Of a stretch of 64,000 nucleotides of DNA, positions 14,416 through 60,290 are shown one piece after another. The DNA is from Clostridia bacterium (GTDB lineage Bacteria; Bacillota; Clostridia; UBA1212; UBA1255). A program made the translations under genes and the position numbers. The stretch spans positions 137,344 to 201,343 of the forward strand of contig JAEFAM010000001.1 of the NCBI GenBank assembly GCA_016287565.1. The letters are read 5' to 3'. Each line of letters starts with the position of its first letter. Within the stretch, counting starts at the first letter, position 1. The notes beneath the pieces are model-generated. The model did no database searches and had not been told where the DNA came from. It saw only the letters and a program-made list of their open reading frames with translations.

Positions 14416-14958
14416 ATGATCGACAACGAAACTATGAAGAGCATACTTGCGCGCAGGAGTTACAAGGTGTTCGACGGCAGGCCGATCGACGACGAGGCGC
14501 TGGAGACGATAGTCACGGCGGGGCTGTACGCGCCAACGGGAATGAACCGCCAGCCGTGGCATTTCACGGTCATCAAAAGCAGGGAAGGAATGGAAAAGTT
14601 CGGCGCAGCGCGGCGTTCGCTCCCGTTGCCACCCGGCATTCCGCCTGAAATTGCCGCAAAATTCGGGGATCCGATGCGTAACGCGCCGGTGATGATACTC
14701 GTGTCCGCGAAAGAAGGCAGCACGTCGCTCGAAGATTGCTGCCTTGCCATGGAAAATATGTTCATCGCTGCGGCGTCCCTCGGCATTATGAGCGGCTGGG
14801 ACCACGCGACGGTTAATGACCTATTCAACCACGCTCCCGAGCTGAAAGCCGAAATGATACCGGAGAGCTACACGCTGTACGCGGCGGCCTTCTTCGGCTA
14901 TCCCGGCCAGACGGTCAAGGATCGCGGCGAGCGCAAAGGCACGGTGGAATATAAATGA
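14416..14958 (+). CDS. Nitroreductase family protein.
   Basis: MKSILARRSYKVF...LETIVTAGLYAPTGMNRQPWHFTVI is the classic nitroreductase N-terminus. RBS GAGGGG. Confidence 0.85.
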   Translation: MIDNETMKSILARRSYKVFDGRPIDDEALETIVTAGLYAPTGMNRQPWHFTVIKSREGMEKFGAARRSLPLPPGIPPEIAAKFGDPMRNAPVMILVSAKEGSTSLEDCCLAMENMFIAAASLGIMSGWDHATVNDLFNHAPELKAEMIPESYTLYAAAFFGYPGQTVKDRGERKGTVEYK

Positions 14959-15065
14959 CCCGTTGACCGGGTGGCCGGATGACCCGTCGACCCAATGACT
15001 CGCTGACCGGTTGACCGGTTGAAAACGCTCGACCGATATTTAGCTTATTCCAGGTGGGACCGATC

Positions 15066-18524: not shown

Positions 18525-18599
18525 CAGTGGAACGGTGACAGACTTGAGTTTTCGTGCCGTCAAACGGTTCTCGAACGGGTGACAGACTTGATTTAATTT
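18520..18599 (+). repeat. Dispersed repeat element E1 (modules A+, B+, A+) overlapping the stop codon of the upstream CDS.
   Basis: AACGGTGACAGACTTGAGTTTT / CGTGCCGTCAAACGGTTCTCG / AACGGGTGACAGACTTGATTT. Confidence 0.8.
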
Positions 18600-19963: not shown

Positions 19964-20094
19964 GCGAGAACCGTTTGACGGCACGCAAAAAGCAAGTCTG
20001 TCACGCGTTCGCACCTCGGAAAAACCAAGTCTGTCACCTGTTCGCTTACCCGTCTAAACGGCTTCGCGTGAATACCTAAATAAGGAAGACAATT
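19964..20094 (-). repeat. Dispersed repeat element E2 (B-, A-, A-, partial C, D). Module D AATAAGGAAG supplies the RBS of the downstream gene.
   Basis: GCGAGAACCGTTTGACGGCACG, two CAAGTCTGTCAC units, TTACCCGTCTAAACGGCTTCGCG, then CCTAAATAAGGAAGACAATT just before the ATG. Confidence 0.8.
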
Positions 20095-21036
20095 ATGAGC
20101 AATATCATTGAAATAAACAGCCTCGACGCACCTGAACTTGACCCGATCCTGCGGCTCACCGGCCGCCAGCTGGTCAATAAATTGCACCCCGACGAGGGGT
20201 CGTTCGTCGTCGAGAGCCCGATCGCTATTGACGCGGCGCTTACCGCCGGGTGCGAACCCGTGGCGCTGCTGGTGGAGGAGCGGTTCATCCGGGGCAATAT
20301 GCAGGGCAGGGCGGCGGAAATCGTTGACCGTGTCGGCAATGCGCCGGTCTACGTGGCTTCCCGGGAGCTGCTTGCGGGAATAACCGGCTTCGAGCTGACG
20401 CGCGGGGCAATGTGCGTGATGCGGAGGCCGGCGGAGCGGGGCTGGCGCGAGGTGATTGCCGGGGCAAGAAGGGTCGCCGTGCTGGAAAATATCGTTGACA
20501 GCACTAACGTGGGGGCAATTTTTCGCTCTGCCGCGGGGCTGGGCATTGACACGGTGCTGCTGACGCCCGAGTGCTGCGATCCGCTGTGCAGGCGTGCGGT
20601 GCGCGTGAGCATGGGGACGGTGTTGATGGTGCCTTTTGCGCGGATCTGCGAGGAAGCGGAAAACAGGCCGCGAACGGGGGACAGACTTGGGTTTTCGCCG
20701 GCGCGAACGGGGGACAGACTTGGGTTTTCGCCGCCGCGAACGGGTGACAGACTTGAGTTTTCCGGGTCCGGCTGGCCTCTTCCGGCGATCGACGAATTGA
20801 AAAAAAGCGGGTTCAAACTGGCGGCAATGGCGCTTCGCGACGACTCTCTGGCGGTCAACGACCCTGCCCTTCGCTCGGCGGAGAAGCTGGCGATCGTTCT
20901 GGGCACGGAGGGTGACGGACTTCTGCAGGAGACGATCGACAATTGCGATTACACGGTCTGCATTCCCATGGCGGGGCGGGTCGATTCATTGAACGTCGGA
21001 GCCGCAGCGGCCATCGCATTTTTCGAAATGGTTTAA
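20095..21036 (+). CDS. TrmH/SpoU-family RNA 2'-O-methyltransferase (RlmB-like), carrying an in-frame 33-aa insertion derived from the repeat element.
   Basis: SpoU motifs VLENIVDSTNVGAIFRSAAGLG, LAIVLGTEGDGL, CIPMAGRVDSLNVGAAAAIAF. An inserted (RTGDRLGFSPA)x3 segment sits between conserved blocks. Confidence 0.85.
   Translation: MSNIIEINSLDAPELDPILRLTGRQLVNKLHPDEGSFVVESPIAIDAALTAGCEPVALLVEERFIRGNMQGRAAEIVDRVGNAPVYVASRELLAGITGFELTRGAMCVMRRPAERGWREVIAGARRVAVLENIVDSTNVGAIFRSAAGLGIDTVLLTPECCDPLCRRAVRVSMGTVLMVPFARICEEAENRPRTGDRLGFSPARTGDRLGFSPPRTGDRLEFSGSGWPLPAIDELKKSGFKLAAMALRDDSLAVNDPALRSAEKLAIVLGTEGDGLLQETIDNCDYTVCIPMAGRVDSLNVGAAAAIAFFEMV
20668..20765 (+). repeat. Three tandem 33-nt copies of repeat module A inside the TrmH-family CDS (in-frame).
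   Basis: CGAACGGGGGACAGACTTGGGTTTTCGCCGGCG x2 plus CGAACGGGTGACAGACTTGAGTTTTCCGG. Confidence 0.85.
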
Positions 21037-21043
21037 GTCAGGT

Positions 21044-21208
21044 GCGAACAGGTAACAGACTTGAGTTTTTGTCCTACCTCATTTAAAAACCAGCGAGAAG
21101 CCGTTTAGACTGGTAAGAATTTTGTCTTTCCAAAATTCGTGCCGTCAAACGGTTCTCGTGCGAACAGGTGACAGACTTGAGTTTTTCCCTTGAGTTTTTC
21201 CTCTTTCC
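21044..21208 (+). repeat. Dispersed repeat element E4 (A+, C-, B+, A+, partial tail).
   Basis: GCGAACAGGTAACAGACTTGAGTTTTT ... CGAGAAGCCGTTTAGACTGGTAAGAATTTTGTCTTTCCAAAATT CGTGCCGTCAAACGGTTCTCG TGCGAACAGGTGACAGACTTGAGTTTTT. Confidence 0.8.
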
Positions 21209-22722: not shown

Positions 22723-24300
22723 ATGAAAAAATTTTTAGGCATCGAACTGGGATCCACGAGGATAAAATCCGTCCTCACCGACGAACGGGGGACAGTGATC
22801 GCGAAAGGCATATTCGACTGGGAAAACAGGCTTGTCCGGGGGCTGTGGAGCTACGACCTGGACGAAGCGCTGCGAGGCCTGGCGGAGAGTTACAAAGAGC
22901 TCTCGGAGGAATATGCGAAAAAAACGGGAGAAACGCTGAAAAAAGTTGACGCGGTGGGAATTTCCGGCATGATGCACGGATATCTGGCGCTGGACGACGA
23001 AGACCGGCAGGTGGGGATATTCCAGACGTGGCGCAACACCCACACGGAAGCCGCGGCGACGGAATTGTCCGAGCTGTTCCGGTTCAACGTGCCGCAGCGG
23101 TGGAGCGTTGCCCAGTATTACCAGGCGGAGCTGTCCGGCGAGGACCACGTCAGGCATGCGGCGAAGCTGTTCACGCTGGCGGGGTACGTGCATTACAGGC
23201 TCACGGGCAACCACGTGTCGGGCGTGGGCGAGGCGTCGGGCATGTTTCCGGTGAACGGGAACGATTACGACGGAACAATGATCGAGGCGTTCGACAGGCG
23301 GCTGGCCGAGCGGGGGCTCCAGGTGCGGTTCCGTCAACTGCTTCCGAGGATCCAGATGGCGGGCGAGATCGGCGGCTATCTGACGCCCGAAGGCGCGAAA
23401 CTGATCGATCCCAGCGGCGAGCTGCTGCCGGGAGCGCCGCTGTGCCCTCCCGAAGGCGACATTCAGACCAATATGGTCTGCGCCAACTCCATCGCGGCGG
23501 GCGCGGGCAACGTTTCTGCCGGCACTTCCTGCAATCTGGTTGCCGTGCTGGACAAGCTTCCGGCCACTTACAGCCCCGACATCGACATCGTTTCCACGCC
23601 CGACGGATTGCCCGCGGCAATGATACATTCCAACAACTGCACTTCCGAGATCAACGCCTGGATCAACCTTTTCGGTGAATTGACCGCGCTTTTCGGACGG
23701 GAAGTGCCTAAAAACGAGCTTTTCCGGCAGCTTTTCCGCCATTCGCTGGAGAGCGACGGCGACGTGGGCGGCCTCGTGGGGTACAACTACCTGGCGGGCG
23801 AGGCCATTGCCGGGTGCGAGACCGGCGCCCTGACCGTCTCCCGCAACCCCTCGGGCAAGCTTTCTCTTGCCAACTTTATGCAGATGCAGATCTATTCCGC
23901 GCTGGGTGCGCTGTCTCTCGGCGTGGACAATCTTCGTTCCATCGGGGCCAACATCCGTTTCGTTACGGCGGCGGGCGGCTATTACAAGACCGAGTTCGTG
24001 GGGCAGAACGCTACTTCGTCAATGTTTGGCGTTCCCGTGACGGTGATGGCGGGCGCGGGCGAGGGCGGCCCCTGGGGCATGGCCCTGCTGGCGATCTATA
24101 TGTTCGTCGCGAACGGGGGACAGACTTGCGTTCGCGGCGGTGAGCTGACGCTGGCGCGGTTCCTGGACGACGTCTTTGCCGACGTGGAGAAGACTACCGT
24201 CATGGCGACGCAGGAGGAGATCGACAAGTGCCGCCGGTTTACCGAGAGGTACAAGAAGTGCCTTGACGCGCAGCGCAGGATGACGGAGCTTATTCGATAA
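22723..24300 (+). CDS. FGGY-family carbohydrate kinase (putative xylulokinase) with a 9-aa in-frame repeat-derived insertion.
   Basis: GIELGSTRIKSV N-terminal ATPase motif. About 525 aa. Follows xylA. RBS AAAGGAG. The NGGQTCVRG segment is encoded by the repeat. Confidence 0.8.
   Translation: MKKFLGIELGSTRIKSVLTDERGTVIAKGIFDWENRLVRGLWSYDLDEALRGLAESYKELSEEYAKKTGETLKKVDAVGISGMMHGYLALDDEDRQVGIFQTWRNTHTEAAATELSELFRFNVPQRWSVAQYYQAELSGEDHVRHAAKLFTLAGYVHYRLTGNHVSGVGEASGMFPVNGNDYDGTMIEAFDRRLAERGLQVRFRQLLPRIQMAGEIGGYLTPEGAKLIDPSGELLPGAPLCPPEGDIQTNMVCANSIAAGAGNVSAGTSCNLVAVLDKLPATYSPDIDIVSTPDGLPAAMIHSNNCTSEINAWINLFGELTALFGREVPKNELFRQLFRHSLESDGDVGGLVGYNYLAGEAIAGCETGALTVSRNPSGKLSLANFMQMQIYSALGALSLGVDNLRSIGANIRFVTAAGGYYKTEFVGQNATSSMFGVPVTVMAGAGEGGPWGMALLAIYMFVANGGQTCVRGGELTLARFLDDVFADVEKTTVMATQEEIDKCRRFTERYKKCLDAQRRMTELIR
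24108..24136 (+). repeat. Single repeat module A (palindromic CGCGAACG-GGGGACAGACTTG-CGTTCGCG) inserted in-frame in the FGGY kinase CDS.
   Basis: Identical 27-nt core to the copy at 39299-39327. Confidence 0.8.
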
Positions 24301-24302
24301 AG

Positions 24303-24450
24303 ACGCGAACCGTTTGACGGCACGAAGCGCGAACCGTTTGAGGGCACGAATTTTGGAAAGACAAAATTCTTACCCGCCTAAACGGCTTCGCGCGGGTTTT
24401 AAATAAGGAAAGAATTGCCCGAAACCCAAGTCTGTCACCTGTTCGCGGGC
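24303..24450 (-). repeat. Dispersed repeat element E6 (B-, B-, C, D, A-).
   Basis: GCGAACCGTTTGACGGCACGAA x2, AATTTTGGAAAGACAAAATTCTTACCCGCCTAAACGGCTTCGCG, TTAAATAAGGAAAG, CCCAAGTCTGTCACCTGTTCGCG. Confidence 0.8.
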
Positions 24451-26378: not shown

Positions 26379-26441
26379 AGTCTGTCACCCGTTCGAGAAC
26401 CGTTTGACGGCACGAAACTGAAGTCTGTCCCTCGTTCGGGG
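26378..26441 (-). repeat. Dispersed repeat element E7 (A-, B-, A-), starting at the stop codon of the upstream CDS.
   Basis: GAAGTCTGTCACCCGTTCG AGAACCGTTTGACGGCACGAA ACTGAAGTCTGTCCCTCGTTCGGGG. Confidence 0.8.
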
Positions 26442-29456: not shown

Positions 29457-30321
29457 AACGGTATTCAGTTACGGCTTCGTTTTCCGGGCAATGCTGGTGG
29501 GCGTCCTGATCTCGGTCTGCGCGGCGCTGCTCGGCGTCAGCCTGGTGCTCAGGCGCTGCTCCATGATCGGAGACGGGCTGTCCCACGTAGGCTTCGGAGC
29601 GCTGGCGGTCGCCGCGGCGCTGGGGGCCGCTCAATTGTGGGTGGCGCTACCGGTGGTCGTGGTGGTGGCTTTCCTCATAATAAGGCTGGGAGACGATTCC
29701 AAGCTCAGCAGCGATTCGGCCATTGCCCTGCTTTCCAGCGGCGTCCTTGCCCTGGGCGTCATGATCGTGTCGCTCACCGGCTCCAACACTAACCTCAGCG
29801 ACTTCCTGTTCGGATCGGTTTTTGCCCTCGGGGAAGCCGACGCGATCCTCAGCCTGGTGCTTTCCGTCATCGTACTGGCGCTTTTCGTGCTGTTCTACAA
29901 CAAGATCTTCGCAGTGACTTTCGATGCCGCGTTCGCCCGGGCGACCGGTACCCGCGAAGGTTTTTACAATACTTTCATCGCGCTGCTCACCGCCGTAACC
30001 GTGGTGGTCGGTATGCGTCTCGTTGGCGCCCTGCTCGTGACGAGCCTGATAATTTTCCCGCCGCTCACGGCAATGAGGGTCTGCAAGAAATTCCGCTCCG
30101 TGGTGATCTGCTCCGGCGTGCTGTCCGCGCTCAGCTTCGTCATCGGAATGATGATCTCCCTGGGCGTGCGCTCCGCTCCCGTGGGCGCCAGCGTCGTGCT
30201 GGTCAACGTGGTGTTTTTCCTGCTTTTCCTCTGCGCAGGGAAGGTCAGGTCAATGATCCGTACCCGGACCGACGGGGGCCGGGATGGTACGGATCCGCAG
30301 CCGGGGGACCGGGGACAATGA
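29425..30321 (+). CDS. Metal ABC transporter permease (ZnuB/MntB-like).
   Basis: MNAAIITDIFKTVFSYGFVFRAMLVGVLISV... polytopic ABC-3 permease pattern. Overlaps the znuC-like stop. Confidence 0.8.
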   Translation: MNAAIITDIFKTVFSYGFVFRAMLVGVLISVCAALLGVSLVLRRCSMIGDGLSHVGFGALAVAAALGAAQLWVALPVVVVVAFLIIRLGDDSKLSSDSAIALLSSGVLALGVMIVSLTGSNTNLSDFLFGSVFALGEADAILSLVLSVIVLALFVLFYNKIFAVTFDAAFARATGTREGFYNTFIALLTAVTVVVGMRLVGALLVTSLIIFPPLTAMRVCKKFRSVVICSGVLSALSFVIGMMISLGVRSAPVGASVVLVNVVFFLLFLCAGKVRSMIRTRTDGGRDGTDPQPGDRGQ

Positions 30322-31457
30322 CCGTTTCAACGGCCGTCCCGCCGGGCGCCCCTGCCGGAGAGGCGTCGTGTGCCCCGTCCGGCGCCCCGTCCTGCGCCCC
30401 GGCCGCCGCTGTTGCTCCTTCTTTCGGTCAACGCCTGAAGGCGGAATTCGGCCGGAAAGTTTACAAATTGTCCCTGGATATCGGCTGCACCTGCCCCACC
30501 CGCGACGGCACCAAAGGCACGCGCGGCTGCATTTTCTGCTCTCAGGCCGGCAGCGGCGACTTCGCCGTACGGTTCACCGGCAAACAGGAAGAACTTGACC
30601 TGGCCAAATCCCGTCTCAAAGGCAAGATCGACACGGACAATGCCGGTTTTATCGCTTATTTTCAAAATTTCACCAACACGTACGCTCCCGTTACGTACCT
30701 GGAGACGCTTTTCACCGCCGCGCTGAAAGACCCGTCGGTTGTGGCGTTGTCGATCGCCACGCGGCCCGACTGCCTCGGGAGCGACGTCATCGAAATGATC
30801 CGACGGCTGTGCCTGCGGACAACCATTTTCGTGGAGCTTGGCCTTCAGACCATCCATCCTGCCACCGCGGCTTTCATCCGCCGCGGCTTCGACCTGCGCG
30901 AGTACGACGATGCGGTGGTCGCGCTTCACGGCGCCGGCGCCAGGGTGGTGACCCACCTGATATTCGGGCTGCCTTATCCGGTTGCCGGACGCAAGTCTGT
31001 CCGAGAACCGTTTGACGGCACGAATTTTGGAAAAAACAAAATTCTTACCCGTCTAAACGGCTTCTCGCTGGTTCCGAACAAGGAAAGGAAGCAGGAACTA
31101 AGGCCTGTTATTTGTTCGGCTGAAACGGAACTGGCCCTCGAGTCGAGGGAAATGATGCTGGGATCGGTAAGATACGTTGTCCGCGCCGGAACGGACGGAG
31201 TGAAATTTCAGCTGCTCCACGTACTTAAAGGGACGGACCTGGCGGACCTGTACCTGCGAGGCGCGTTCAGAACGTTGACCTTCGACGAATACAAGGAAAT
31301 AATAAAAGAGGCAGCCGAGCTGCTGCCTCCCGAAATCGCCATTCACCGCCTCACCGGCGACCCGCCGCGAAAACTGCTGATCGCGCCACAATGGTGCACC
31401 GACAAAAAGCGGGTATTGAACGAGATCAATCGAAAAATTCTTCGTAAAGCGCCTTGA
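30318..31457 (+). CDS. TIGR01212-family radical SAM protein (YhcC-like), carrying an about 36-aa in-frame insertion encoded by a composite repeat element.
   Basis: GCTCPTRDGTKGTRGCIFCSQ radical-SAM Cys motif typical of TIGR01212. 379 aa against about 310 aa typical. The inserted segment VAGRKSVREPFDGTNFGKNKILTRLNGFSLVPNKERKQ maps onto repeat modules A-, B-, C. Confidence 0.8.
   Translation: MTVSTAVPPGAPAGEASCAPSGAPSCAPAAAVAPSFGQRLKAEFGRKVYKLSLDIGCTCPTRDGTKGTRGCIFCSQAGSGDFAVRFTGKQEELDLAKSRLKGKIDTDNAGFIAYFQNFTNTYAPVTYLETLFTAALKDPSVVALSIATRPDCLGSDVIEMIRRLCLRTTIFVELGLQTIHPATAAFIRRGFDLREYDDAVVALHGAGARVVTHLIFGLPYPVAGRKSVREPFDGTNFGKNKILTRLNGFSLVPNKERKQELRPVICSAETELALESREMMLGSVRYVVRAGTDGVKFQLLHVLKGTDLADLYLRGAFRTLTFDEYKEIIKEAAELLPPEIAIHRLTGDPPRKLLIAPQWCTDKKRVLNEINRKILRKAP
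30986..31091 (-). repeat. Composite repeat element E8 (A-, B-, C, D-like) lying entirely inside the radical SAM CDS, in-frame.
   Basis: CGGACGCAAGTCTGTCCGAG AACCGTTTGACGGCACGAA TTTTGGAAAAAACAAAATTCTTACCCGTCTAAACGGCTTCTCG ...AACAAGGAAAGG. Confidence 0.8.
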
Positions 31458-35720: not shown

Positions 35721-35851
35721 CCTCAGCTCAGATCCTTTCGTCCGGACCCGGCGCTCTTCCGCCTGTCCGGGCTTTCGCGACGTCAACGCCTCCGTTGCGG
35801 CATTAACTGAATAATACTATATCATTTAAGCTGGAAATTCAAGAGGGTGCA

Positions 35852-36057
35852 GCAGGGGACAGAGGAGCAACGGGGGACAGACCCCGGTTGCCGATGCCGG
35901 AAACGCAAGTCTGTCCGCGAATCGTTTGACGGCACGAATTTTGGAAAGACAAAATTCTTACCCGTCTAAACGACTTCGCGCCGGTTTTGTAATAAGGAAA
36001 CAGAAGTCTGTTCCTCATTTCCTGGCGGGGAAACAGAAGTCTGTCCCTCGTTCGCGG
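35852..36057 (-). repeat. Dispersed repeat element E9 (partial A+, A-, B-, C, D, A-, A-).
   Basis: ...CAACGGGGGACAGAC; GGAAACGCAAGTCTGTCCGCG AATCGTTTGACGGCACGAA TTTTGGAAAGACAAAATTCTTACCCGTCTAAACGACTTCGCG ...TAATAAGGAAACAGAAGTCTGTTCC...CAGAAGTCTGTCCCTCGTTCGCGG. Confidence 0.8.
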
Positions 36058-38560: not shown

Positions 38561-38597
38561 AATGCCGGCGAACAAAAGGAAATCAGGAGTTGTTGTT

Positions 38598-40643
38598 ATG
38601 AAACCGTCAAAAACAGATCTTGCCCTCGGAAAATATCTGCCCCGCTTCACCGAAAGCGGCATCGTCCCCTTCAGCTACAAGCTCGACGGAGTTGCCTATA
38701 ATGGCATCCCCGCGGAATTTTCGCCCAAAGCGGAAACGCGTAAGATCGACGCCAACATCATCTTCTCGGTGATCACCGGCAGGACGCCCGCGGGCCTGGA
38801 GCTCAGGGCCGAATGCAAAGAATATATCGATTATCCCGTGACCGAATGGGTCATGTCTATGACGAACACGGACTCCGCGAATTCGGCGGTGATAACCGGC
38901 TGGCAGGCAGAAGCGGAATTTCCGTTGACGCCATTCAACGAGGAGGCTCCGGAGCCGCGGGACGGGAAAAATAACGCGAAACTTCTCCACGGCAACGGCG
39001 ACAACGTCACCGATCAGGGCTACTCCTGGTTCGTTGACGCGCTGTGCCCCGAGCCCCTCTGCATCGCGCCCTCGGGAGACGGGACCTCCTGCAACGGCGC
39101 ATTCCCGTACATGCGGCTGATCCTGGACGGGTACGACGTCAATATCGCCGTGGGCTGGACCGGGACCTGGCAGCTGACCGCCTCCGAGAGCGGCGGGACC
39201 GTCAAGATCGCTGCGTCTCAGAAGCGTTTCAACACCTACCTCGAACCCGGTGAGACGGTGCGCACCCCGCTGCTGGTGCTCCAGACCGCTTCCGACTGCC
39301 GCGAACGGGGGACAGACTTGCGTTCGGCCGGATGCGACCAGGACGCTGCCCGCAACCTCTGGCGCAGCTGGTACATCGACCACGTGCTGCCCAGGCAGGA
39401 CGGCAGACCCCTTCAGCCCAAGCTGGTGCTCCACACGTTCATGATAGATGGATTGCCCGAATTTTGCGGCGTCACCGAAGAAAACCAGCTAAAAGCGATA
39501 CAGACGTATATTGACCGCCGCCTCAAACCGGACATCTGGTGGATCGACGCAGGCTGGTACCCCTGCAACAACAACTGGCCCACGGGCACCGGCAACTGGT
39601 TCCCGAACCCGGATCATTTCCCCGACGGCATGCATAAGGTCGGAGAAATATGCAAGGCAAACGGCATCGACCTGCTGCTCTGGTTCGAGCCGGAGCGCGT
39701 CTACCGTAACACGGAGCTTTGGAACGACCACCCCGAATATCTGATCTTCGGTGCCCCCGAGGACGACAACGCACTCCTGTTTCTGGGCGATCCCGCCGCC
39801 CGCAGGTGGATCACCGACCGTGTGGACAACGTCATCAAAGAGGCCGGGGTCAATGTCTACCGCCAGGATTTCAACTTCGCGCCTGCGAGCTACTGGGCCC
39901 GCGGCGAGGCGGACAACAGGCAGGGCATTCACGAAAACCTGCATATCCAGGGCTATTATGCATTCTGGGACGAGCTGCTCAGGCGCAACCCCGGGCTCTG
40001 GATCGACTCCTGCTCCTCCGGCGGCCGCCGCAACGACATAGAAACCATGAAGCGCGCCGTGCCCCTCCACTACACCGACATCGGCTACGGCCACCATCCC
40101 ACCAAACAGAAGCAGCACCGCCAGATGTTCGAGTGGATACCATATTTCCGCGCCCACAATATGAGCTGGGACAGGCCAGACGGCACCTACGGCGGCAATA
40201 TGCCCGTTGACGAGTTCGCGTACCAGAACGCCCTCACGCCCTCCGTCACCTCGATGATAGAGTGGAACGACCCGGAGGAGCGGTTCGAGATCGGCCGCGC
40301 GTTCCATCCCATCTGGCGAAAAGCGGCCGAGATCATGCTCCGCGCCGATTACTACCCGTTGACCGAGACCAACGCCAGCCCCGCCGACTGGTATGCCATG
40401 CAGTTCTACGATCCGGAGCGCCGGGACGGTTTCGTCCAGGTGATACGTAATATTGCCGTCGAGGATGGCCGGACGACGCTTTTCGGCTTCGTTCCGGAGG
40501 AAAATCTCCACAGGATCTACCGGTTCTACGACCCGGTCTCCAATCAGGTCTGGACCATGTCCGGCGAGAATTTCCGCTCGGGCGGCTTCGAGGAGACGCT
40601 CCCGAAACGCAGCGGCAGGATCTGGTTCTATTGTGTTTTGTGA
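38598..40643 (+). CDS. GH36-like glycoside hydrolase, cytoplasmic paralog of 4418-6541, carrying a 9-aa in-frame repeat-derived insertion.
   Basis: WWIDAGWY, LLLWFEPE, YRQDFNF, CSSGGRRND motifs. RBS AGGAG. CRERGTDLRS is extra relative to the paralog. Confidence 0.8.
   Translation: MKPSKTDLALGKYLPRFTESGIVPFSYKLDGVAYNGIPAEFSPKAETRKIDANIIFSVITGRTPAGLELRAECKEYIDYPVTEWVMSMTNTDSANSAVITGWQAEAEFPLTPFNEEAPEPRDGKNNAKLLHGNGDNVTDQGYSWFVDALCPEPLCIAPSGDGTSCNGAFPYMRLILDGYDVNIAVGWTGTWQLTASESGGTVKIAASQKRFNTYLEPGETVRTPLLVLQTASDCRERGTDLRSAGCDQDAARNLWRSWYIDHVLPRQDGRPLQPKLVLHTFMIDGLPEFCGVTEENQLKAIQTYIDRRLKPDIWWIDAGWYPCNNNWPTGTGNWFPNPDHFPDGMHKVGEICKANGIDLLLWFEPERVYRNTELWNDHPEYLIFGAPEDDNALLFLGDPAARRWITDRVDNVIKEAGVNVYRQDFNFAPASYWARGEADNRQGIHENLHIQGYYAFWDELLRRNPGLWIDSCSSGGRRNDIETMKRAVPLHYTDIGYGHHPTKQKQHRQMFEWIPYFRAHNMSWDRPDGTYGGNMPVDEFAYQNALTPSVTSMIEWNDPEERFEIGRAFHPIWRKAAEIMLRADYYPLTETNASPADWYAMQFYDPERRDGFVQVIRNIAVEDGRTTLFGFVPEENLHRIYRFYDPVSNQVWTMSGENFRSGGFEETLPKRSGRIWFYCVL
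39299..39327 (+). repeat. Single repeat module A inserted in-frame in GH36-like gene #2.
   Basis: CGCGAACGGGGGACAGACTTGCGTTCGG. The paralog at 4418-6541 lacks these codons at the aligned position. Confidence 0.85.
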
Positions 40644-54987: not shown

Positions 54988-56091
54988 ATGAAAATTTCCG
55001 ATATCGACAGCAATCTGAGAGTGGCGGAAACGCTGGAACTGCCGGACGTACAATGGTTCGGCGCAGGCAGCGATATTTTCCGGGTCTACGGTACGTCGGG
55101 AGACTGCGGCAGCGGCCCGTTTAGAAGGGTGCCCGAAGACGTTGCAGCGGCAACCAGCGAGGCGGTGGCGTATCTTGCCACCAACACGGCGGGGATCAGG
55201 CTTAGGCTGCGCACCGATTCGCCTTACGTTGCAATCCACGCGGAGTGGCATTGCCAGTGCCAGTTCCCGCATATGGCCGTGACGGGCGTCAGCGGATTCG
55301 ATCTGTACCGCATTTCCGGCGGCGCCTCCGGCAACGGCGTCCAGGAATTTGCGGGCACTTTCATCCCGCCTTTTATTTCGCCTCACGGGTACGAGAGCGT
55401 GCTGCCCACGCCCGGCGGCATGCAGGACCTGGTGATATATTTCCCGCTGTACAACGACGTTTCCAAGCTTTACGTAGGACTTCAGGCCGGGGCGAAGACG
55501 GAGGCTCCCGGGACGTATTCATATAAATTGCCCGTGGCGTTTTACGGGTCGTCCATCACCCAGGGAGGATGCGCTTCGAGGCCCGGCACGGCGTATCAGG
55601 CGATGTTGTCCCGGGCGCTGGACGTGGATATAGTGAACCTGGGCTTTTCGGGCAGCGCGCTGGGGGAGACCGCCATTGTCCGGTATATCGCGTCGCTTCC
55701 CTTGCTGGCCTTCGTGTGCGATTACGACCACAACGCCCCCACGCCGGAGCACCTGGAACGCACCCATTATCCGCTTTACAAAACGGTCAGGGAGGCGCAG
55801 CCGGACCTGCCCATATTATTCCTTTCGAAGCCCGACGGCCGGAACATAAATCCGGACGCGGTCAATATCAACCTCCGCCGCGCGGCGATCATCCGCGAGA
55901 CATACGACCGGGCGGTTCGCGAGGGGGACAATAACGTCTATTATATCAACGGCTTTTCTCTTTATGAGGAAGACGTGACGATGGCGGCAAGCGTCGACGG
56001 CTGCCATCCCAACGACCTGGGCTTCTATTTCTTCTTTAAGGCGCTGCTGCCGGTGCTGAAGTCGCTGCTCGGAGGGAAAGTGGGCGCCTGA
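54988..56091 (+). CDS. SGNH/GDSL hydrolase with an N-terminal beta-sandwich domain.
   Basis: FYGSSITQG block I and DGCHPND block V of SGNH hydrolases. Confidence 0.8.
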   Translation: MKISDIDSNLRVAETLELPDVQWFGAGSDIFRVYGTSGDCGSGPFRRVPEDVAAATSEAVAYLATNTAGIRLRLRTDSPYVAIHAEWHCQCQFPHMAVTGVSGFDLYRISGGASGNGVQEFAGTFIPPFISPHGYESVLPTPGGMQDLVIYFPLYNDVSKLYVGLQAGAKTEAPGTYSYKLPVAFYGSSITQGGCASRPGTAYQAMLSRALDVDIVNLGFSGSALGETAIVRYIASLPLLAFVCDYDHNAPTPEHLERTHYPLYKTVREAQPDLPILFLSKPDGRNINPDAVNINLRRAAIIRETYDRAVREGDNNVYYINGFSLYEEDVTMAASVDGCHPNDLGFYFFFKALLPVLKSLLGGKVGA

Positions 56092-56222
56092 GCTTGCTCC
56101 GGGGCCGTTGCTGTGAGGAAAAACCGGGGCCTGAGCTTGCTCCGGGGCCGTTGCTGTGAGGAAAAACCGGCGCCTGAGCTTGCTCCGGGGCCGTTGCTGT
56201 GAGGAAAAACCGGCGCCTGAGC
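56087..56222 (+). repeat. Tandem direct repeat, 43-bp unit x about 3.1, beginning at the SGNH gene stop codon.
   Basis: CCTGAGCTTGCTCCGGGGCCGTTGCTGTGAGGAAAAACCGG(G/C)G repeated at 56087, 56130 and 56173, with a partial unit at 56216. Confidence 0.85.
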
Positions 56223-57015: not shown

Positions 57016-57470
57016 GGGCGTTTCGCGCTCGTTTTGGGCAACAGGTAGCGCGGCCTTCTTTCAAACGCCCAGAAATCCGGGTTAAGAGGTAAAAGTTAGG
57101 CGTTTCGCGCTCATTTCCGGCTTTGAGGCAGCGCCACTTTCTTTCAAACGCCCAGAAATCCGGGTTAAGAGGTAAAATGTGGGCGTTTCACGCTCGTTTC
57201 CGGCTTTGAGGCAGCGCCACCTTCTTTCAAACGCCCAGAAATCCGGGTTAAGAGGTAAAATGTGGGCGTTTCACGCTCGTTTCCGGCTTTGAGGCGGCGC
57301 CACCTTTACGAAAACGCCCAGAAATCCAGGTTAAGAGGCAAAATCAGGGCGTTTCTCGCTCATTTTAATCCTCGAGGCGGCGCCACCTTTACGAAAACGC
57401 CCAGAAATCCGGGTTAAGAGGTAAAATGTGGGCGTTTCACGCTCATTTCCGGCTTTGAGACAGCGCCGCG
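57016..57470 (+). repeat. Tandem array of about 5.5 units of an 82-84-bp repeat upstream of rpsO. Each unit contains the inverted repeat CAAACGCCC...GGGCGTTT.
   Basis: Units start at about 57016, 57098, 57181, 57263, 57347 and 57430. Unit: GGGCGTTTCACGCTCGTTTCCGGCTTTGAGGCAGCGCCACCTTCTTTCAAACGCCCAGAAATCCGGGTTAAGAGGTAAAATGT. Confidence 0.85.
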
Positions 57471-57711: not shown

Positions 57712-57975
57712 ATGACAAAGGAAAGAAAACAGGAAATCATCAAGACCTACGGCCTCAAGGAAGGCGACACCGGATCCCCCGAGGTCCAGGTCGCTCTGCT
57801 CACCGAGCGCATCAACGAGCTCAACAAGCACCTCGAGTCCCATAAGAAGGACCACCACTCCAGACGCGGCCTGCTCATCATGGTCGGTCACAGACGCGGC
57901 CTCCTTTCTTACCTTCAGAAGATCGACGTAGCGCGCTACCGTTCGCTGATCGAAAGACTTGGTCTGAGAAAGTAA
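57712..57975 (+). CDS. rpsO: 30S ribosomal protein S15.
   Basis: 87 aa. ...[24 protein letters not shown]...HHSRRGLL... Confidence 0.95.
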
Positions 57976-58205: not shown

Positions 58206-60290
58206 ATGTTCAGAACGTTTACAACACAGCTTGCCGGCAGGACCCTCACACTCGAATTCGGAAAGATGGCCCAGCTGGCCAACGGCGCCTGCCTCGTCCG
58301 CTACGGAGACACAGTGGTATTGTCCACCGCCACCGCTTCCAAAGAGCCCAAAGAGGGGATCGATTTCTTCCCCCTCAGCGTCGACTACGAGGAGAAGCTC
58401 TACTCCGTAGGCAAGATCCCCGGCGGATTCATCAAAAGAGAGGGCAAGCCTTCCGAAAAAGCGATCCTGACCTCCCGCGTCATTGACCGCCCCATTCGCC
58501 CCCTGTTCCCGAAAGATCTGAGGAACGACGTGGTGGTCATCAACACGGTTATGTCGGTGGACCAGGACAACTCCCCTGAAATTGCCGCTATGATCGGTAC
58601 TTCCGCCGCGCTGGCAGTCTCCGATATTCCGTGGGGCGGCCCCATCGGCGGCATCGTGCTCGGCCTCGTTGACGACCAGGTCGTCATCAACCCCAACGCC
58701 GCTCAGAGAGAGCGCAGCAAAATGTACGTCACCCTGGCCGGTACCCGCGAGAAGATCTGCATGATCGAAGCAGGCGCCCAGGAAGTTCCCGACGACGTGA
58801 TGCTGAACGCCATCATTAAAGGTCACGGCACCATTAAAAAGATCTGCGAGTTCATCGAAGGCATCCGCGCCGAGATCGGCAAAGAGAAGTTCACGTACAA
58901 ATCCGCTGAAGTTCCTCACGAGATCTACGACGACGTGAAGGCGCTCGTATTCGACGAGCTGAAGGCTGCCGTGTACACCCCGGACAAACCGGAGCGCGAC
59001 GCCAAGATCGACGCCATCACCAAGCGCACCGCAGAGGCGCTGGCCGAGAAATATCCCGATTCCAAGGCAAAGATCGGCGAAGCCATCTACAAACTTGAGA
59101 AGAGCATCGTACGCGAAGGCATCCTGCGCGACCACAAACGCGTTGACGGCCGCGGCCTGTACGACATCCGTCCTCTCAGCGCCGAAGTAGGCATCCTTCC
59201 CAGGACCCACGGTTCGGGCCTGTTCAAGAGAGGCCTCACTCAGGTGCTGACGATCGCCACCCTCGGCCCCATGTCCGACATCCAGAAGATGGACGGCATC
59301 GACCTGGAAGACTCCAAGCGCTACATGCATCACTACAACTTCCCGGCTTACAGCGTCGGCGAAGCCAAGACTTCCAGAGGCCCCGGACGCCGCGAGATCG
59401 GCCACGGCGCGCTGGCTGAAAGAGCTCTCGAACCCGTTATCCCCTCCGAGGAAGAATTCCCCTACGCCATCCGCCTCGTTTCCGAAGTGCTGATGTCCAA
59501 CGGATCCACCTCTCAGGGCAGCGTTTGCGGATCCACTCTGGCCCTTATGGACGCCGGCGTGCCCATCAAACGCCCCGTCACCGGTATTTCCGCCGGCCTC
59601 GTCACCAACCCCGATGACGAGAACGATTTCGTCACCTTTATGGACATCCAGGGCATCGAAGACTTCTTCGGCGACATGGACTTCAAGGTGGCCGGTACCG
59701 AAAAAGGCATCACCGCCATCCAGGTAGATATAAAGGTCCAGGGACTTTCCTACGAGATCATCCGCCAGGCCTTCGAGCTCACTCATAAAGGCCGCGACCG
59801 CATCCTCAACGAGGTCATGCTTCCCTGCATCTCCGCTCCTCGCGATCATCTGTCCAAGTACGCTCCCAAGATGTACCAGATGAAGATCGATCCGGACAAG
59901 ATCCGCGACGTCATCGGCTCCGGCGGCAAGGTCATCAACCGCATCATCGACGAGACCGGCGTCAAGATCGACATCAACGACGACGGCACCATCTACGTTG
60001 CAGCCGTTGAAGAGGAAGCGGCCAATAAAGCCATGGACATCATCAAAGGAATCACCGGCGACATCGAAGTCGGTACCGTCTTCGAGGGCAAGGTCACCAA
60101 GACGATGGCCTTCGGCGCTTTCGTGGAATACCTGCCCGGCAAGGAAGGCATGGTCCACATCTCCAGGCTGGCCAAGTACCGCGTGGAGCACACCGAGGAC
60201 GTGGTCAACGTCGGCGATATCGTCAAGATCAAATACATCGGCCTTGACAAGCAGGGCAGGATGGATTTCTCCATCAAGGACGTGGAATGA
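58206..60290 (+). CDS. pnp: Polynucleotide phosphorylase.
   Basis: 694 aa. Two RNase PH domains, KH (IRDVIGSGGKVI) and S1 (GTVFEGKVTKTMAFGAFVEY) domains. Confidence 0.95.
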   Translation: MFRTFTTQLAGRTLTLEFGKMAQLANGACLVRYGDTVVLSTATASKEPKEGIDFFPLSVDYEEKLYSVGKIPGGFIKREGKPSEKAILTSRVIDRPIRPLFPKDLRNDVVVINTVMSVDQDNSPEIAAMIGTSAALAVSDIPWGGPIGGIVLGLVDDQVVINPNAAQRERSKMYVTLAGTREKICMIEAGAQEVPDDVMLNAIIKGHGTIKKICEFIEGIRAEIGKEKFTYKSAEVPHEIYDDVKALVFDELKAAVYTPDKPERDAKIDAITKRTAEALAEKYPDSKAKIGEAIYKLEKSIVREGILRDHKRVDGRGLYDIRPLSAEVGILPRTHGSGLFKRGLTQVLTIATLGPMSDIQKMDGIDLEDSKRYMHHYNFPAYSVGEAKTSRGPGRREIGHGALAERALEPVIPSEEEFPYAIRLVSEVLMSNGSTSQGSVCGSTLALMDAGVPIKRPVTGISAGLVTNPDDENDFVTFMDIQGIEDFFGDMDFKVAGTEKGITAIQVDIKVQGLSYEIIRQAFELTHKGRDRILNEVMLPCISAPRDHLSKYAPKMYQMKIDPDKIRDVIGSGGKVINRIIDETGVKIDINDDGTIYVAAVEEEAANKAMDIIKGITGDIEVGTVFEGKVTKTMAFGAFVEYLPGKEGMVHISRLAKYRVEHTEDVVNVGDIVKIKYIGLDKQGRMDFSIKDVE

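What the first reader, a model, noticed from the sequence alone, without database searches (positions are those of the whole stretch)
30986..31091. About 106-nt composite element (A-, B-, C, D-like) read through in-frame inside a TIGR01212 radical SAM gene
The radical SAM protein is about 379 aa against about 310 aa typical for this family. The excess corresponds to ...VAGRKSVREPFDGTNFGKNKILTRLNGFSLVPNKERKQ..., encoded precisely by repeat modules A(-), B(-), C and the AAGGAAAGG tail. A multi-module element of more than 100 nt with no stop in the host frame is a striking case of a mobile repeat being exapted as coding sequence.
Basis: partly seen in the sequence, partly recalled or inferred. 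Interest (0 to 1): 0.85.

Follow-up and report, generated by a model that had tools for sequence, protein, structure and literature searches.

The report
Intergenic hairpin repeat inserted in-frame in gene
A 135-base copy of this bacterium's own intergenic hairpin repeat sits in-frame inside a tRNA-modification (radical SAM, MnmL/YtqA) gene, adding a 45-residue predicted floppy loop that the closest relative lacks; this kind of event is already well known from Rickettsia, and here it turns up in a different bacterium.

Summary
The host ORF (30318-31457, 379 aa) is a clear TIGR01212 MnmL/YtqA radical SAM protein. A syntenic relative (L001, about 94-95% nt identity) has the empty site. The insert is a composite: truncated A module, 66-nt B-loop-C hairpin, RBS-like linker, degenerate A module. 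The same composite lies in intergenic regions of the window and of relatives, where copies are presence/absence polymorphic. The gene copy is stop-free because it carries a one-base-longer loop variant and an altered linker. Flanking codons remain under purifying selection (dN/dS about 0.1). AlphaFold keeps the radical SAM core and models the insert as a low-confidence loop between the invariant GLP and E275. A sister lineage carries an independent 144-nt insertion of a different repeat in the same loop. Three other genes in the window carry 33-nt A units in-frame, with copy-number differences from L001. Best reading: a tolerated, probably translated selfish-repeat insertion, like Rickettsia palindromic elements. 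"Exaptation" is not shown. The insertion mechanism is unresolved: no target-site duplication and no transposase in the window. This is a new member of a known kind.

The parts
30318..31457 (+). Host gene: TIGR01212 MnmL/YtqA-type tRNA-modification radical SAM protein, 379 aa including the insert
   Evidence: All family-invariant residues are kept. The model's closest solved fold is the Elp3 radical SAM domain.
30987..31121 (+). Inserted composite repeat, 135 nt = codons 224-268 (GRKSVREPFDGTNFGKNKILTRLNGFSLVPNKERKQELRPVICSA). It is absent from the orthologous site of L001.
   Evidence: GC 0.47 and GC3 0.49, against 0.60 and 0.72 for the rest of the gene.
30987..31002 (+). Left, truncated A module (GGACGCAAGTCTGTCC)
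   Evidence: The same A-to-hairpin junction (AAGTCTGTCC|GMGAAYCG) occurs in the intergenic copies at window 35.9 kb and L001 0.7 kb.
31002..31067 (+). B-loop-C hairpin: outer stem 31002-31018/31049-31067, inner stem GAATTTTG/CAAAATTC. The loop is 1 nt longer than in most copies.
   Evidence: MFE -30.6 kcal/mol, z -5.7. 25 pairs, 97.5% paired across 8 copies, 3 pairs with compensatory changes. The loop length keeps the TAA of GTCTAAACGG out of frame.
31068..31091 (+). Linker CTGGTTCCGAACAAGGAAAGGAAG. It corresponds to the intergenic GGTTTTTAAATAAGGAAAG tail (U-run, stops, SD-like AAGGAAAG), but here the T-run and the TAA/TGA are replaced.
31092..31121 (+). Right, degenerate A module (CAGGAACTAAGGCCTGTTATTTGTTCGGCT, about 67% like intergenic A units).
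   Evidence: alignment; coordinates
21093..21159 (-). Intergenic full hairpin copy, flanked by two A modules (21045-21062 and 21161-21178)
24327..24393 (+). Intergenic full hairpin copy, preceded by a solo B (24304-24327). The whole block 24322-24426 is absent from L001.
35915..35981 (+). Intergenic full hairpin copy in the same A'-hairpin-linker-A arrangement as the gene insert. Its left flank CCCCGGTTGCCGATGCCGGAAACGCAAGTCTGTCC resembles the gene junction.
19965..20068 (+). Split copy: the B and C arms enclose two A modules instead of the inner hairpin. The tail AAGGAAG lies 7 nt before the ATG at 20095.
20667..20762 (-). Three tandem 33-nt A units read in-frame inside the SpoU methyltransferase gene 20095..21036 (PRTGDRLGFS x3). 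L001 has two.
24108..24140 (-). One A unit in-frame inside the FGGY kinase gene 22723..24300 (ANGGQTCVRGG). L001 has two.
39300..39332 (-). One A unit in-frame inside the melibiase gene 38562..40643 (RERGTDLRS). L001 has two, and L073 has about five units of its own A variant at the same site.

Best explanation
This genome and its relatives carry an undescribed family of mosaic intergenic repeats. The modules are a 33-nt A unit, a 66-nt B-loop-C hairpin and an SD-like linker. They are gained, lost and reshuffled between close relatives. After the split from the L001 lineage, one 135-nt composite block (A'-hairpin-linker-A) was copied into the mnmL/ytqA-type gene. The insertion point, CCGGTTGCC|GA, resembles the 3' end of an A module (CCYGTTCGC|G). 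The insert persisted for three reasons: its length is a multiple of three, this variant is stop-free in the host frame, and it lies in a loop of the enzyme that tolerates extra residues. It is most likely transcribed and translated as a 45-residue, basic, disordered excursion between the conserved GLP strand and Glu275. The enzyme stays functional, so the insert is a tolerated selfish passenger, as with Rickettsia palindromic elements. Shown: the insertion polarity, its repeat origin, the open frame, purifying selection on the flanks and the predicted loop location. Inferred: translation, retained activity and neutrality. The insertion route is also inferred: either microhomology or template switching, or an unknown enzyme that prefers A-like ends.
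For: Empty site in the syntenic relative, and absence from all other homologues. Repeat identity to intergenic copies. Presence/absence and positional polymorphism of hairpin copies between the window and L001 at three or more sites. The same composite lies in another relative with a different A variant. The hairpin is conserved, with compensatory changes. The long-loop variant and the altered linker explain the open frame. dN/dS is 0.14 upstream and 0.09 downstream of the insert; on the window branch there are 3 amino-acid changes against 11 synonymous changes. An identical 379-aa protein is found on 6 contigs in NCBI and JGI. In the AF2 model the core has pLDDT above 90 and the insert 39-56. 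The loop is variable in this clade, and an independent 144-nt repeat insertion sits at the same site in L072/P0121 but not in L073/L074. A units lie in-frame in three other genes. The phenomenon is documented for RPE, BRE, BOX and REPs (PMC3184786, PMC10969869, PMC3733652).
Against: There is no expression or proteomic evidence. The insert splits the family-invariant GLPxE segment. From general knowledge of radical SAM enzymes this segment lies at the SAM-binding end of a beta strand, so activity could be impaired. There is no clean target-site duplication, no identifiable donor copy, and no transposase or RAYT in the 64-kb window. The linker and right A module are far more diverged (about 67%) than the hairpin, which a single recent neutral insertion does not explain. 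The dN/dS values cover both branches since divergence, and the counts are small.
Confidence: 0.72

Rival explanations
1. Adaptive exaptation. The inserted peptide, or the mRNA hairpin, has acquired a function. Candidates are an extra basic tRNA-binding loop, or an intragenic RNA structure that modulates translation or mRNA stability.
For: The peptide is basic: 10 K/R against 4 D/E, pI 10.5, in an enzyme expected to bind tRNA (family name; bioRxiv 10.1101/2023.12.21.572861). The hairpin is almost unchanged while the linker lost its stops and U-run. The same loop has acquired repeat inserts twice.
Against: The insert is predicted to be disordered. Its base composition is unameliorated. The equivalent insert in the sister lineage changes at 6 of 48 residues, against 9 of 318 elsewhere. 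The relative without the insert is otherwise nearly identical. No protein representative shares the peptide. Recurrence at one loop is equally explained by permissiveness.
Confidence: 0.12
2. Gene inactivation in progress. The insertion has crippled the enzyme, and the ORF is an intact-looking young pseudogene.
For: The insert separates the invariant P219 and E275, which are one residue apart in typical family members. dN/dS of the gene (0.09-0.14) is somewhat higher than that of its neighbours (0.03-0.06).
Against: There is no frameshift or stop. The window branch has 3 non-synonymous against 11 synonymous changes. Clade members naturally carry 10-40 extra residues here. AF2 restores the GLP/E275 geometry through a beta-hairpin stalk, residues 219-226 and 270-274.
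Confidence: 0.1
3. The segment is ancestral coding sequence that was deleted in relatives, or it is an assembly artefact.
For: The boundary is ambiguous by about 3 nt, and there is no target-site duplication to prove insertion.
Against: The segment is 88-98% identical to non-coding intergenic repeats. Every homologue examined lacks it, apart from the identical P0001. The identical protein was recovered on 6 contigs from two sources.
Confidence: 0.03

Closest known systems
Rickettsia palindromic elements (RPE; Ogata et al. 2000, as summarised in PMC3184786 and PMC10969869)
   Same: Both are palindromic repeats of about 100-150 bp, dispersed in intergenic regions and inside unrelated housekeeping ORFs. 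Both insert in-frame without stops, at positions compatible with the protein fold. No transposase is known for either.
   Different: No sequence relationship was tested or is expected, because the host is a different, roughly 57% GC bacterium whose relatives come from ruminant-gut metagenome assemblies. The insert here is a mosaic of several modules rather than a single RPE unit. A second module type (the 33-nt A unit) forms in-frame tandem arrays with copy-number variation.
REP/BIME mosaic elements and intragenic REPs (Di Nocera et al. 2013, PMC3733652)
   Same: Both form clusters of short structured repeats combined with other motifs in variable mosaics. Both lie mostly just downstream of stop codons between co-directional genes, with occasional copies inside genes.
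   Different: The hairpin is 66 nt, not 20-40 nt. No conserved unpaired GTAG or CGTC tag flanks the stems. No RAYT was seen in the window.
MITEs with ORF fusions (ERIC, BOX, Nezha, BRE; Delihas 2007/2011; Hot et al. 2011, as cited in PMC3184786)
   Same: All are small non-autonomous repeats that fold into long hairpins. Filled and empty sites occur between relatives, and in-frame fusions with host ORFs are known.
   Different: There is no target-site duplication at the gene site. The inverted arms are internal to the inserted block rather than terminal. No cognate IS was identified.
MIRU/VNTR-type tandem intergenic repeats of mycobacteria (as described in PMC3184786)
   Same: The A units form tandem arrays whose period preserves the reading frame, with copy-number polymorphism between close relatives and an open frame across units.
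   Different: Here the arrays also sit inside enzyme domains (SpoU, FGGY, melibiase) and associate with a separate hairpin module.

Membership tests
TIGR01212 MnmL/YtqA radical SAM (host gene) | Score above the curated NCBIfam cutoff | tested here: met
   274.3 bits against a cutoff of 180, E 1e-81. Pfam Radical_SAM and Radical_SAM_C both match.
TIGR01212 MnmL/YtqA radical SAM (host gene) | Conserved cluster cysteines and other family-invariant residues are intact | tested here: met
   C59, C71, C74, G217-L218-P219, E275 and the other invariant columns are retained in alignments of 21 and 78 sequences.
TIGR01212 MnmL/YtqA radical SAM (host gene) | tRNA xnm5(s2)U-related activity | not testable with these tools
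   The function is known only from literature on family members (bioRxiv 10.1101/2023.12.21.572861; 10.64898/2026.05.18.725915).
RPE-like in-frame palindromic repeat insertion | Multi-copy palindromic element of about 100-150 bp | tested here: met
   135-nt composite with a 66-nt hairpin. There are four or more full copies in the window, three in L001 and one each in L075 and L076.
RPE-like in-frame palindromic repeat insertion | Copies inside ORFs that keep the reading frame open, with an empty site in relatives | tested here: met
RPE-like in-frame palindromic repeat insertion | Insertion at a position compatible with the protein fold | tested here: met
   Met at prediction level only. The AF2 core has pLDDT above 90 and the insert is a low-confidence loop. 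The loop varies in length across the clade.
RPE-like in-frame palindromic repeat insertion | Sequence homology to the Rickettsia RPE families | not tested
   No RPE consensus is available in the tools. Rfam gives no match.
MITE | Target-site duplication flanking the insert | tested here: not met
   Filled site CCGGTTGCC[135 nt]GAAACGG against empty site CCGGTTGCCGAGACGG: no clean direct duplication.
MITE | Terminal inverted repeats at the ends of the mobile unit | tested here: inconclusive
   The B and C arms are inverted repeats, but the inserted block extends beyond them with A modules in direct orientation.
MITE | Cognate IS or transposase with matching ends | not testable with these tools
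   No transposase domain was found in 30 window ORFs scanned. The whole genome is not available, and the genome-contig scan gave only chance hits.
REP/BIME (REPIN) | Unpaired GTAG or CGTC tag at one end of a 20-40 bp palindrome (PMC3733652) | tested here: not met
   The flanks of the 8 aligned hairpins share no such tag, and the stem-loop is 66 nt.
REP/BIME (REPIN) | Mosaic clusters combining the palindrome with other short motifs, mostly extragenic | tested here: met
   A-B-A, A-BC-A and B-A-A-C arrangements occur, mostly directly after stop codons.
REP/BIME (REPIN) | Associated RAYT transposase | not testable with these tools
   None in the window. The rest of the genome was not seen.

The most novel reading that the evidence does not exclude
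This lineage, whose relatives come from ruminant-gut metagenome assemblies, hosts a repeat system that routinely colonises coding sequence. Four of about 46 genes in the window are affected, all within 20 kb. Four different reading frames are used, the units have 3n periods, and copy number differs between near-identical relatives. The same loop of MnmL was hit independently by two different repeats. That would make it a much denser counterpart of the Rickettsia RPE phenomenon, and the first in a bacterium that is not an obligate intracellular one. The modules and the host target share a CCGTT(Y)G core, which may point to a still unknown site-preferring insertion or recombination enzyme.
Probability: 0.3. 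Interest if true: 0.7.

Novelty: new member of a known kind. Interest (0 to 1): 0.5.

Why it matters
In-frame colonisation of housekeeping proteins by selfish repeats is best documented in Rickettsia, where it raises the question of how proteins tolerate, or come to use, random peptide inserts. This locus offers matched filled and empty alleles of a tRNA-modification enzyme. It also has a second independent filled/empty pair at the same loop, and three further genes with copy-number-variable in-frame units. Together these form a compact natural experiment on loop permissiveness, on repeat mobility without an obvious transposase, and on gene annotation (over-long ORFs, domain models split in two). 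It also defines a repeat family absent from Rfam.

Tried and rejected
**Searches that gave nothing**
- Rfam: no family at gathering threshold in the window, and only sub-threshold hairpin look-alikes over the insert.
- Genome-contig scan with the B module: 70 single hits, all chance matches of 18-20 nt. The source species is not represented.
- The search for homologous proteins with the insert peptide, once alone and once with other frames concatenated: nothing. The scan did not even recover the identical P0001, so this negative is uninformative.
- Exhaustive phmmer of the 46-aa peptide against 1.84 billion representatives: 0 hits.
- PDB sequence search for the FGGY kinase at E 1e-10 gave nothing.

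**Ideas considered and rejected**
- Intrinsic-terminator reading of the hairpin: the scan does not call the copies as terminators, and only some copies have a U-run.
- Internal promoter: a weak TTGACG-18-CAAAAT lies inside the hairpin, but the spacer is 19 in the gene copy. Not pursued.
- Intein, intron or translational bypass: the insert is too short for an intein or a group I/II intron. The frame is open throughout, and there are no matched take-off and landing codons.
- Internal restart from the SD-like AAGGAAAGG: the nearest in-frame ATG is about 60 nt downstream.

Full report
**1. Observation**

The window contains an ORF at 30318..31457(+) of 379 aa. It matches NCBIfam TIGR01212, "tRNA modification radical SAM protein MnmL/YtqA", at 274 bits against a cutoff of 180. 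The match comes in two stretches, the first ending at residue 220. Pfam finds Radical_SAM (68-219) and Radical_SAM_C (293-374). Homologues are mostly 288-312 aa long.

BLAST of 30941-31160 against the window gives:
- 95.8% identity over 72 nt to 21088-21158 (E 4e-27)
- 91.8% over 85 nt to 35903-35986 (E 2e-25)
- 91.3% over 69 nt to 24331-24398 (E 3e-18), plus shorter module hits

Pattern counts for the three modules far exceed dinucleotide-shuffled expectation: A 18 against 0.8, B 8 against 0.1, C 5 against 0.01. GC content drops to 0.46-0.50 across the segment.

**2. True extent and polarity**

The nearest homologue after the identical P0001 is P0002 (334 aa, 92% identical over aligned columns). 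It lacks exactly 45 residues between YPV and AETEL. Its contig (L001, an ENA metagenome scaffold of 201 kb) is syntenic with the window over at least 21 kb at about 92-96% nt identity.

At DNA level the empty site reads TATCCGGTTGCC|GAGACGG. The window has 135 extra bases there, at 30987-31121, with the boundary ambiguous by about 3 nt. No other homologue among 120 listed, 77 of them aligned with the window protein, carries this sequence. An insertion in the window's lineage is therefore the parsimonious reading.

The 45 aa also explain only part of the excess length. The rest is a 34-aa Ala/Pro-rich N-terminal extension and a clade-specific loop of about 10 aa, both shared with L001.

**3. 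Anatomy**

Alignment with intergenic copies resolves the insert into four parts:
- a truncated A module (30987-31002)
- a 66-nt hairpin made of the B arm, an inner GAATTTTG/CAAAATTC stem-loop and the C arm (31002-31067)
- a linker (31068-31091) that corresponds to the intergenic GGTTTTTAAATAAGGAAAG tail
- a degenerate A module (31092-31121, about 67% like intergenic A units)

The same order, A'-hairpin-linker-A, is seen at 35.9 kb and 21.1 kb in the window and at three sites in L001. It also appears in two JGI metagenome contigs (L075, L076) from a relative whose A variant is different.

The hairpin folds at -30.6 kcal/mol (z = -5.7). Across eight copies, 97.5% of the 200 pair cells form standard pairs, and three pairs show compensatory double changes. 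The sample is small and the sequences are related, so this is supportive rather than conclusive. No Rfam family matches.

**4. Why the frame is open**

Most intergenic copies, read in the host frame, hit the TAA inside the C arm (GTCTAAACGG). The gene copy, like L001:15420-15487, has a loop one base longer. That shifts the frame so the arm reads CGT CTA AAC GGC.

In the linker, the intergenic TTTTAAATAAGG is TCCGAACAAGG in the gene. This change removes both the stop codons and the U-run. Either a favourable variant was inserted or the stops were purged afterwards. The contrast between a near-intact hairpin and a strongly diverged linker and right A module is unexplained. One possibility is a two-step history: an A unit inserted first, with the hairpin nested into it later.

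**5. Is the gene still working?**

dN/dS between the window and L001 is 0.14 upstream and 0.09 downstream of the insert, at dS of about 0.16. For comparison it is 0.03 for aspartokinase and 0.06 for the ABC ATPase. With L073 as outgroup, the window branch carries 3 amino-acid changes against 11 synonymous changes. All family-invariant residues are present. The identical 379-aa protein is recorded on six contigs in NCBI and JGI, which argues against an assembly artefact.

An AlphaFold2 model built from 78 sequences has mean pLDDT 82.7, with the core above 90. Its closest solved folds are Elp3 radical SAM domains. Ten-residue block means across residues 231-270 range from 39 to 56. Short strands at 219-226 and 270-274 form a stalk that brings E275 back next to G217-L218-P219.

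In typical family members P219 and E275 are one residue apart (GLPxE). From general knowledge of radical SAM enzymes this segment lies at the cofactor end of a beta strand, so an effect on activity cannot be excluded. However, members of this clade naturally carry 10-40 extra residues at this point.

**6. The repeat family is dynamic**

Between the window and L001:
- the hairpin block at 24322-24426 is present only in the window
- a hairpin block at L001:5910-6000 is present only in L001
- in the thrC-ispD intergenic region, both genomes have a hairpin but at different positions

Modules occur in several arrangements: A-B-A, A-BC-A, and B-A-A-C (19965-20068). Copies usually begin directly after a stop codon. 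At 20068-20095 the SD-like tail sits 7 nt before a start codon.

No transposase domain was found in the 30 window ORFs scanned, and the gene site has no target-site duplication. The host target (CCGGTTGCC|GA) resembles the 3' end of A units (CCYGTTCGC|G). It also shares 11 nt (CCGGTTGCCGA) with the left flank of the 35.9-kb copy. This suggests either microhomology-mediated copying or an activity that adds units next to A-like ends. That step is inference.

**7. The case is not isolated**

- In a sister lineage (genes about 73-81% identical in protein), L072/P0003 and P0121 carry an independent 144-nt in-frame insertion at the same loop. It is made of about 30-nt units of a different repeat, which also occurs intergenically at L073:18445-18534. 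L073, L074 and P0004 have the empty site at 98.6% gene identity.
- Between P0003 and P0121, 6 of 48 inserted residues differ, against 9 of 318 elsewhere. This indicates relaxed constraint on the inserted peptide.
- Within the window, 33-nt A units are read in-frame in three other genes, each in a different frame:
  - the SpoU methyltransferase: three units, two in L001, splitting the Pfam domain match
  - the FGGY kinase: one unit, two in L001
  - the melibiase: one unit, two in L001, and about five units of its own A variant in L073

**8. Comparison with known systems**

In-frame insertion of palindromic repeats into housekeeping genes is established for several families:
- Rickettsia RPEs
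- Bordetella BRE
- pneumococcal BOX/RUP
- ERIC
- some REPs (PMC3184786 section 15; PMC10969869 section 4.2; PMC3733652 abstract)

The present case behaves like an RPE. It fails or cannot complete the membership tests for MITEs (no target-site duplication, arms not terminal) and for tagged REPs (no GTAG or CGTC tag, stem-loop too long). Homology to RPEs was not testable. It is best filed as a new member of a known kind, in an undescribed repeat family.

The organism could not be named. The genome-contig scan returned only chance hits. The relatives come from assemblies whose names suggest ruminant-gut studies, which is my reading of the sample labels.

**9. Verdict**

The "mobile repeat read through in-frame" part is supported. 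"Exapted" is not demonstrated, and a tolerated, probably translated passenger is the best-supported reading (confidence about 0.7). Interest is moderate. The phenomenon is known, but two features make this a good system for studying it. One is the density of in-frame repeats here: four genes within 20 kb, with filled and empty alleles and copy-number variants between near-identical genomes. The other is the double hit on one loop.

Noticed in passing
L072:995-1138 versus L073:10001-10954 (also P0121): An independent 144-nt (48-aa) in-frame insertion lies at the same loop of the orthologous TIGR01212 gene in a sister lineage. It is built from about 30-nt tandem units (GAAAAGMTTTRCGCRGRAGARTTTTYCCGGG) of a different repeat. 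That repeat also occurs intergenically at L073:18445-18534. The empty-site allele is 98.6% identical.
   Followed up: yes
window 20667-20762 (SpoU methyltransferase gene 20095..21036): Three tandem 33-nt A units are read in-frame (PRTGDRLGFS x3) and split the SpoU_methylase Pfam match. L001 has two units.
   Followed up: yes
window 24108-24140 (FGGY kinase gene 22723..24300): One A unit is in-frame (ANGGQTCVRGG). L001 has two tandem units (ANGGQTCVSDG ANGGQTCVHGG).
   Followed up: yes
window 39300-39332 (melibiase gene 38562..40643); L073:19232-19501: One A unit is in-frame (RERGTDLRS). L001 has two. L073 has about five units of its own A variant (CACCTGTCCCCCGTTCC) at the same site, giving 746 aa against 693-695 aa. 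This suggests concerted evolution or repeated reinsertion.
   Followed up: partly
window 24322-24426; L001:5910-6000; window 35845-36054 versus L001:15422-15704: Hairpin elements differ in presence/absence or position between the window and the roughly 95%-identical relative. Solo B modules (18553-18570, 24304-24327, 26394-26417) occur with identical A|B|A junctions.
   Followed up: partly
window 30318-30420: The N-terminal 34 aa of the radical SAM ORF are Ala/Pro-rich, contain a 12-nt tandem repeat (30372-30409), and are highly divergent from L001. The start overlaps the upstream ABC-3 permease stop (ATGA).
   Followed up: no
window 57043-57467 and 56083-56222: Two unrelated tandem arrays, of 83 nt x 5.1 and 43 nt x 3.3, lie in non-coding DNA upstream of rpsO (57712..57975) and pnp (58206..60290). 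Neither has an Rfam match.
   Followed up: partly
window 14956-15022: An 8-nt tandem repeat (TGACCCGT x 8.4) lies between the nitroreductase and DUF6273 genes.
   Followed up: no
window 21119-21148(-), 35926-35955(+): The hairpin contains a weak sigma-70-like TTGACG-18-CAAAAT. The linker carries TAA stops plus an SD-like AAGGAAAG, which at 20068-20095 sits 7 nt before a start codon. This recalls the Neisseria REP2 promoter/RBS cassettes described in PMC3184786.
   Followed up: no
L008:7276-7293, L029:1888-1905: The B-module 18-mer also occurs once each in two Kiritimatiellia MAGs, apparently inside coding sequence (HEPFEGTPG / EPFDGTPA). There is no flanking repeat similarity, so these are probably chance matches.
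   Followed up: partly
tool behaviour: The word-indexed protein search did not retrieve P0001 with a 45-aa query that is an exact substring of it. Negative results from that tool for short or unusual peptides should not be trusted.
   Followed up: yes
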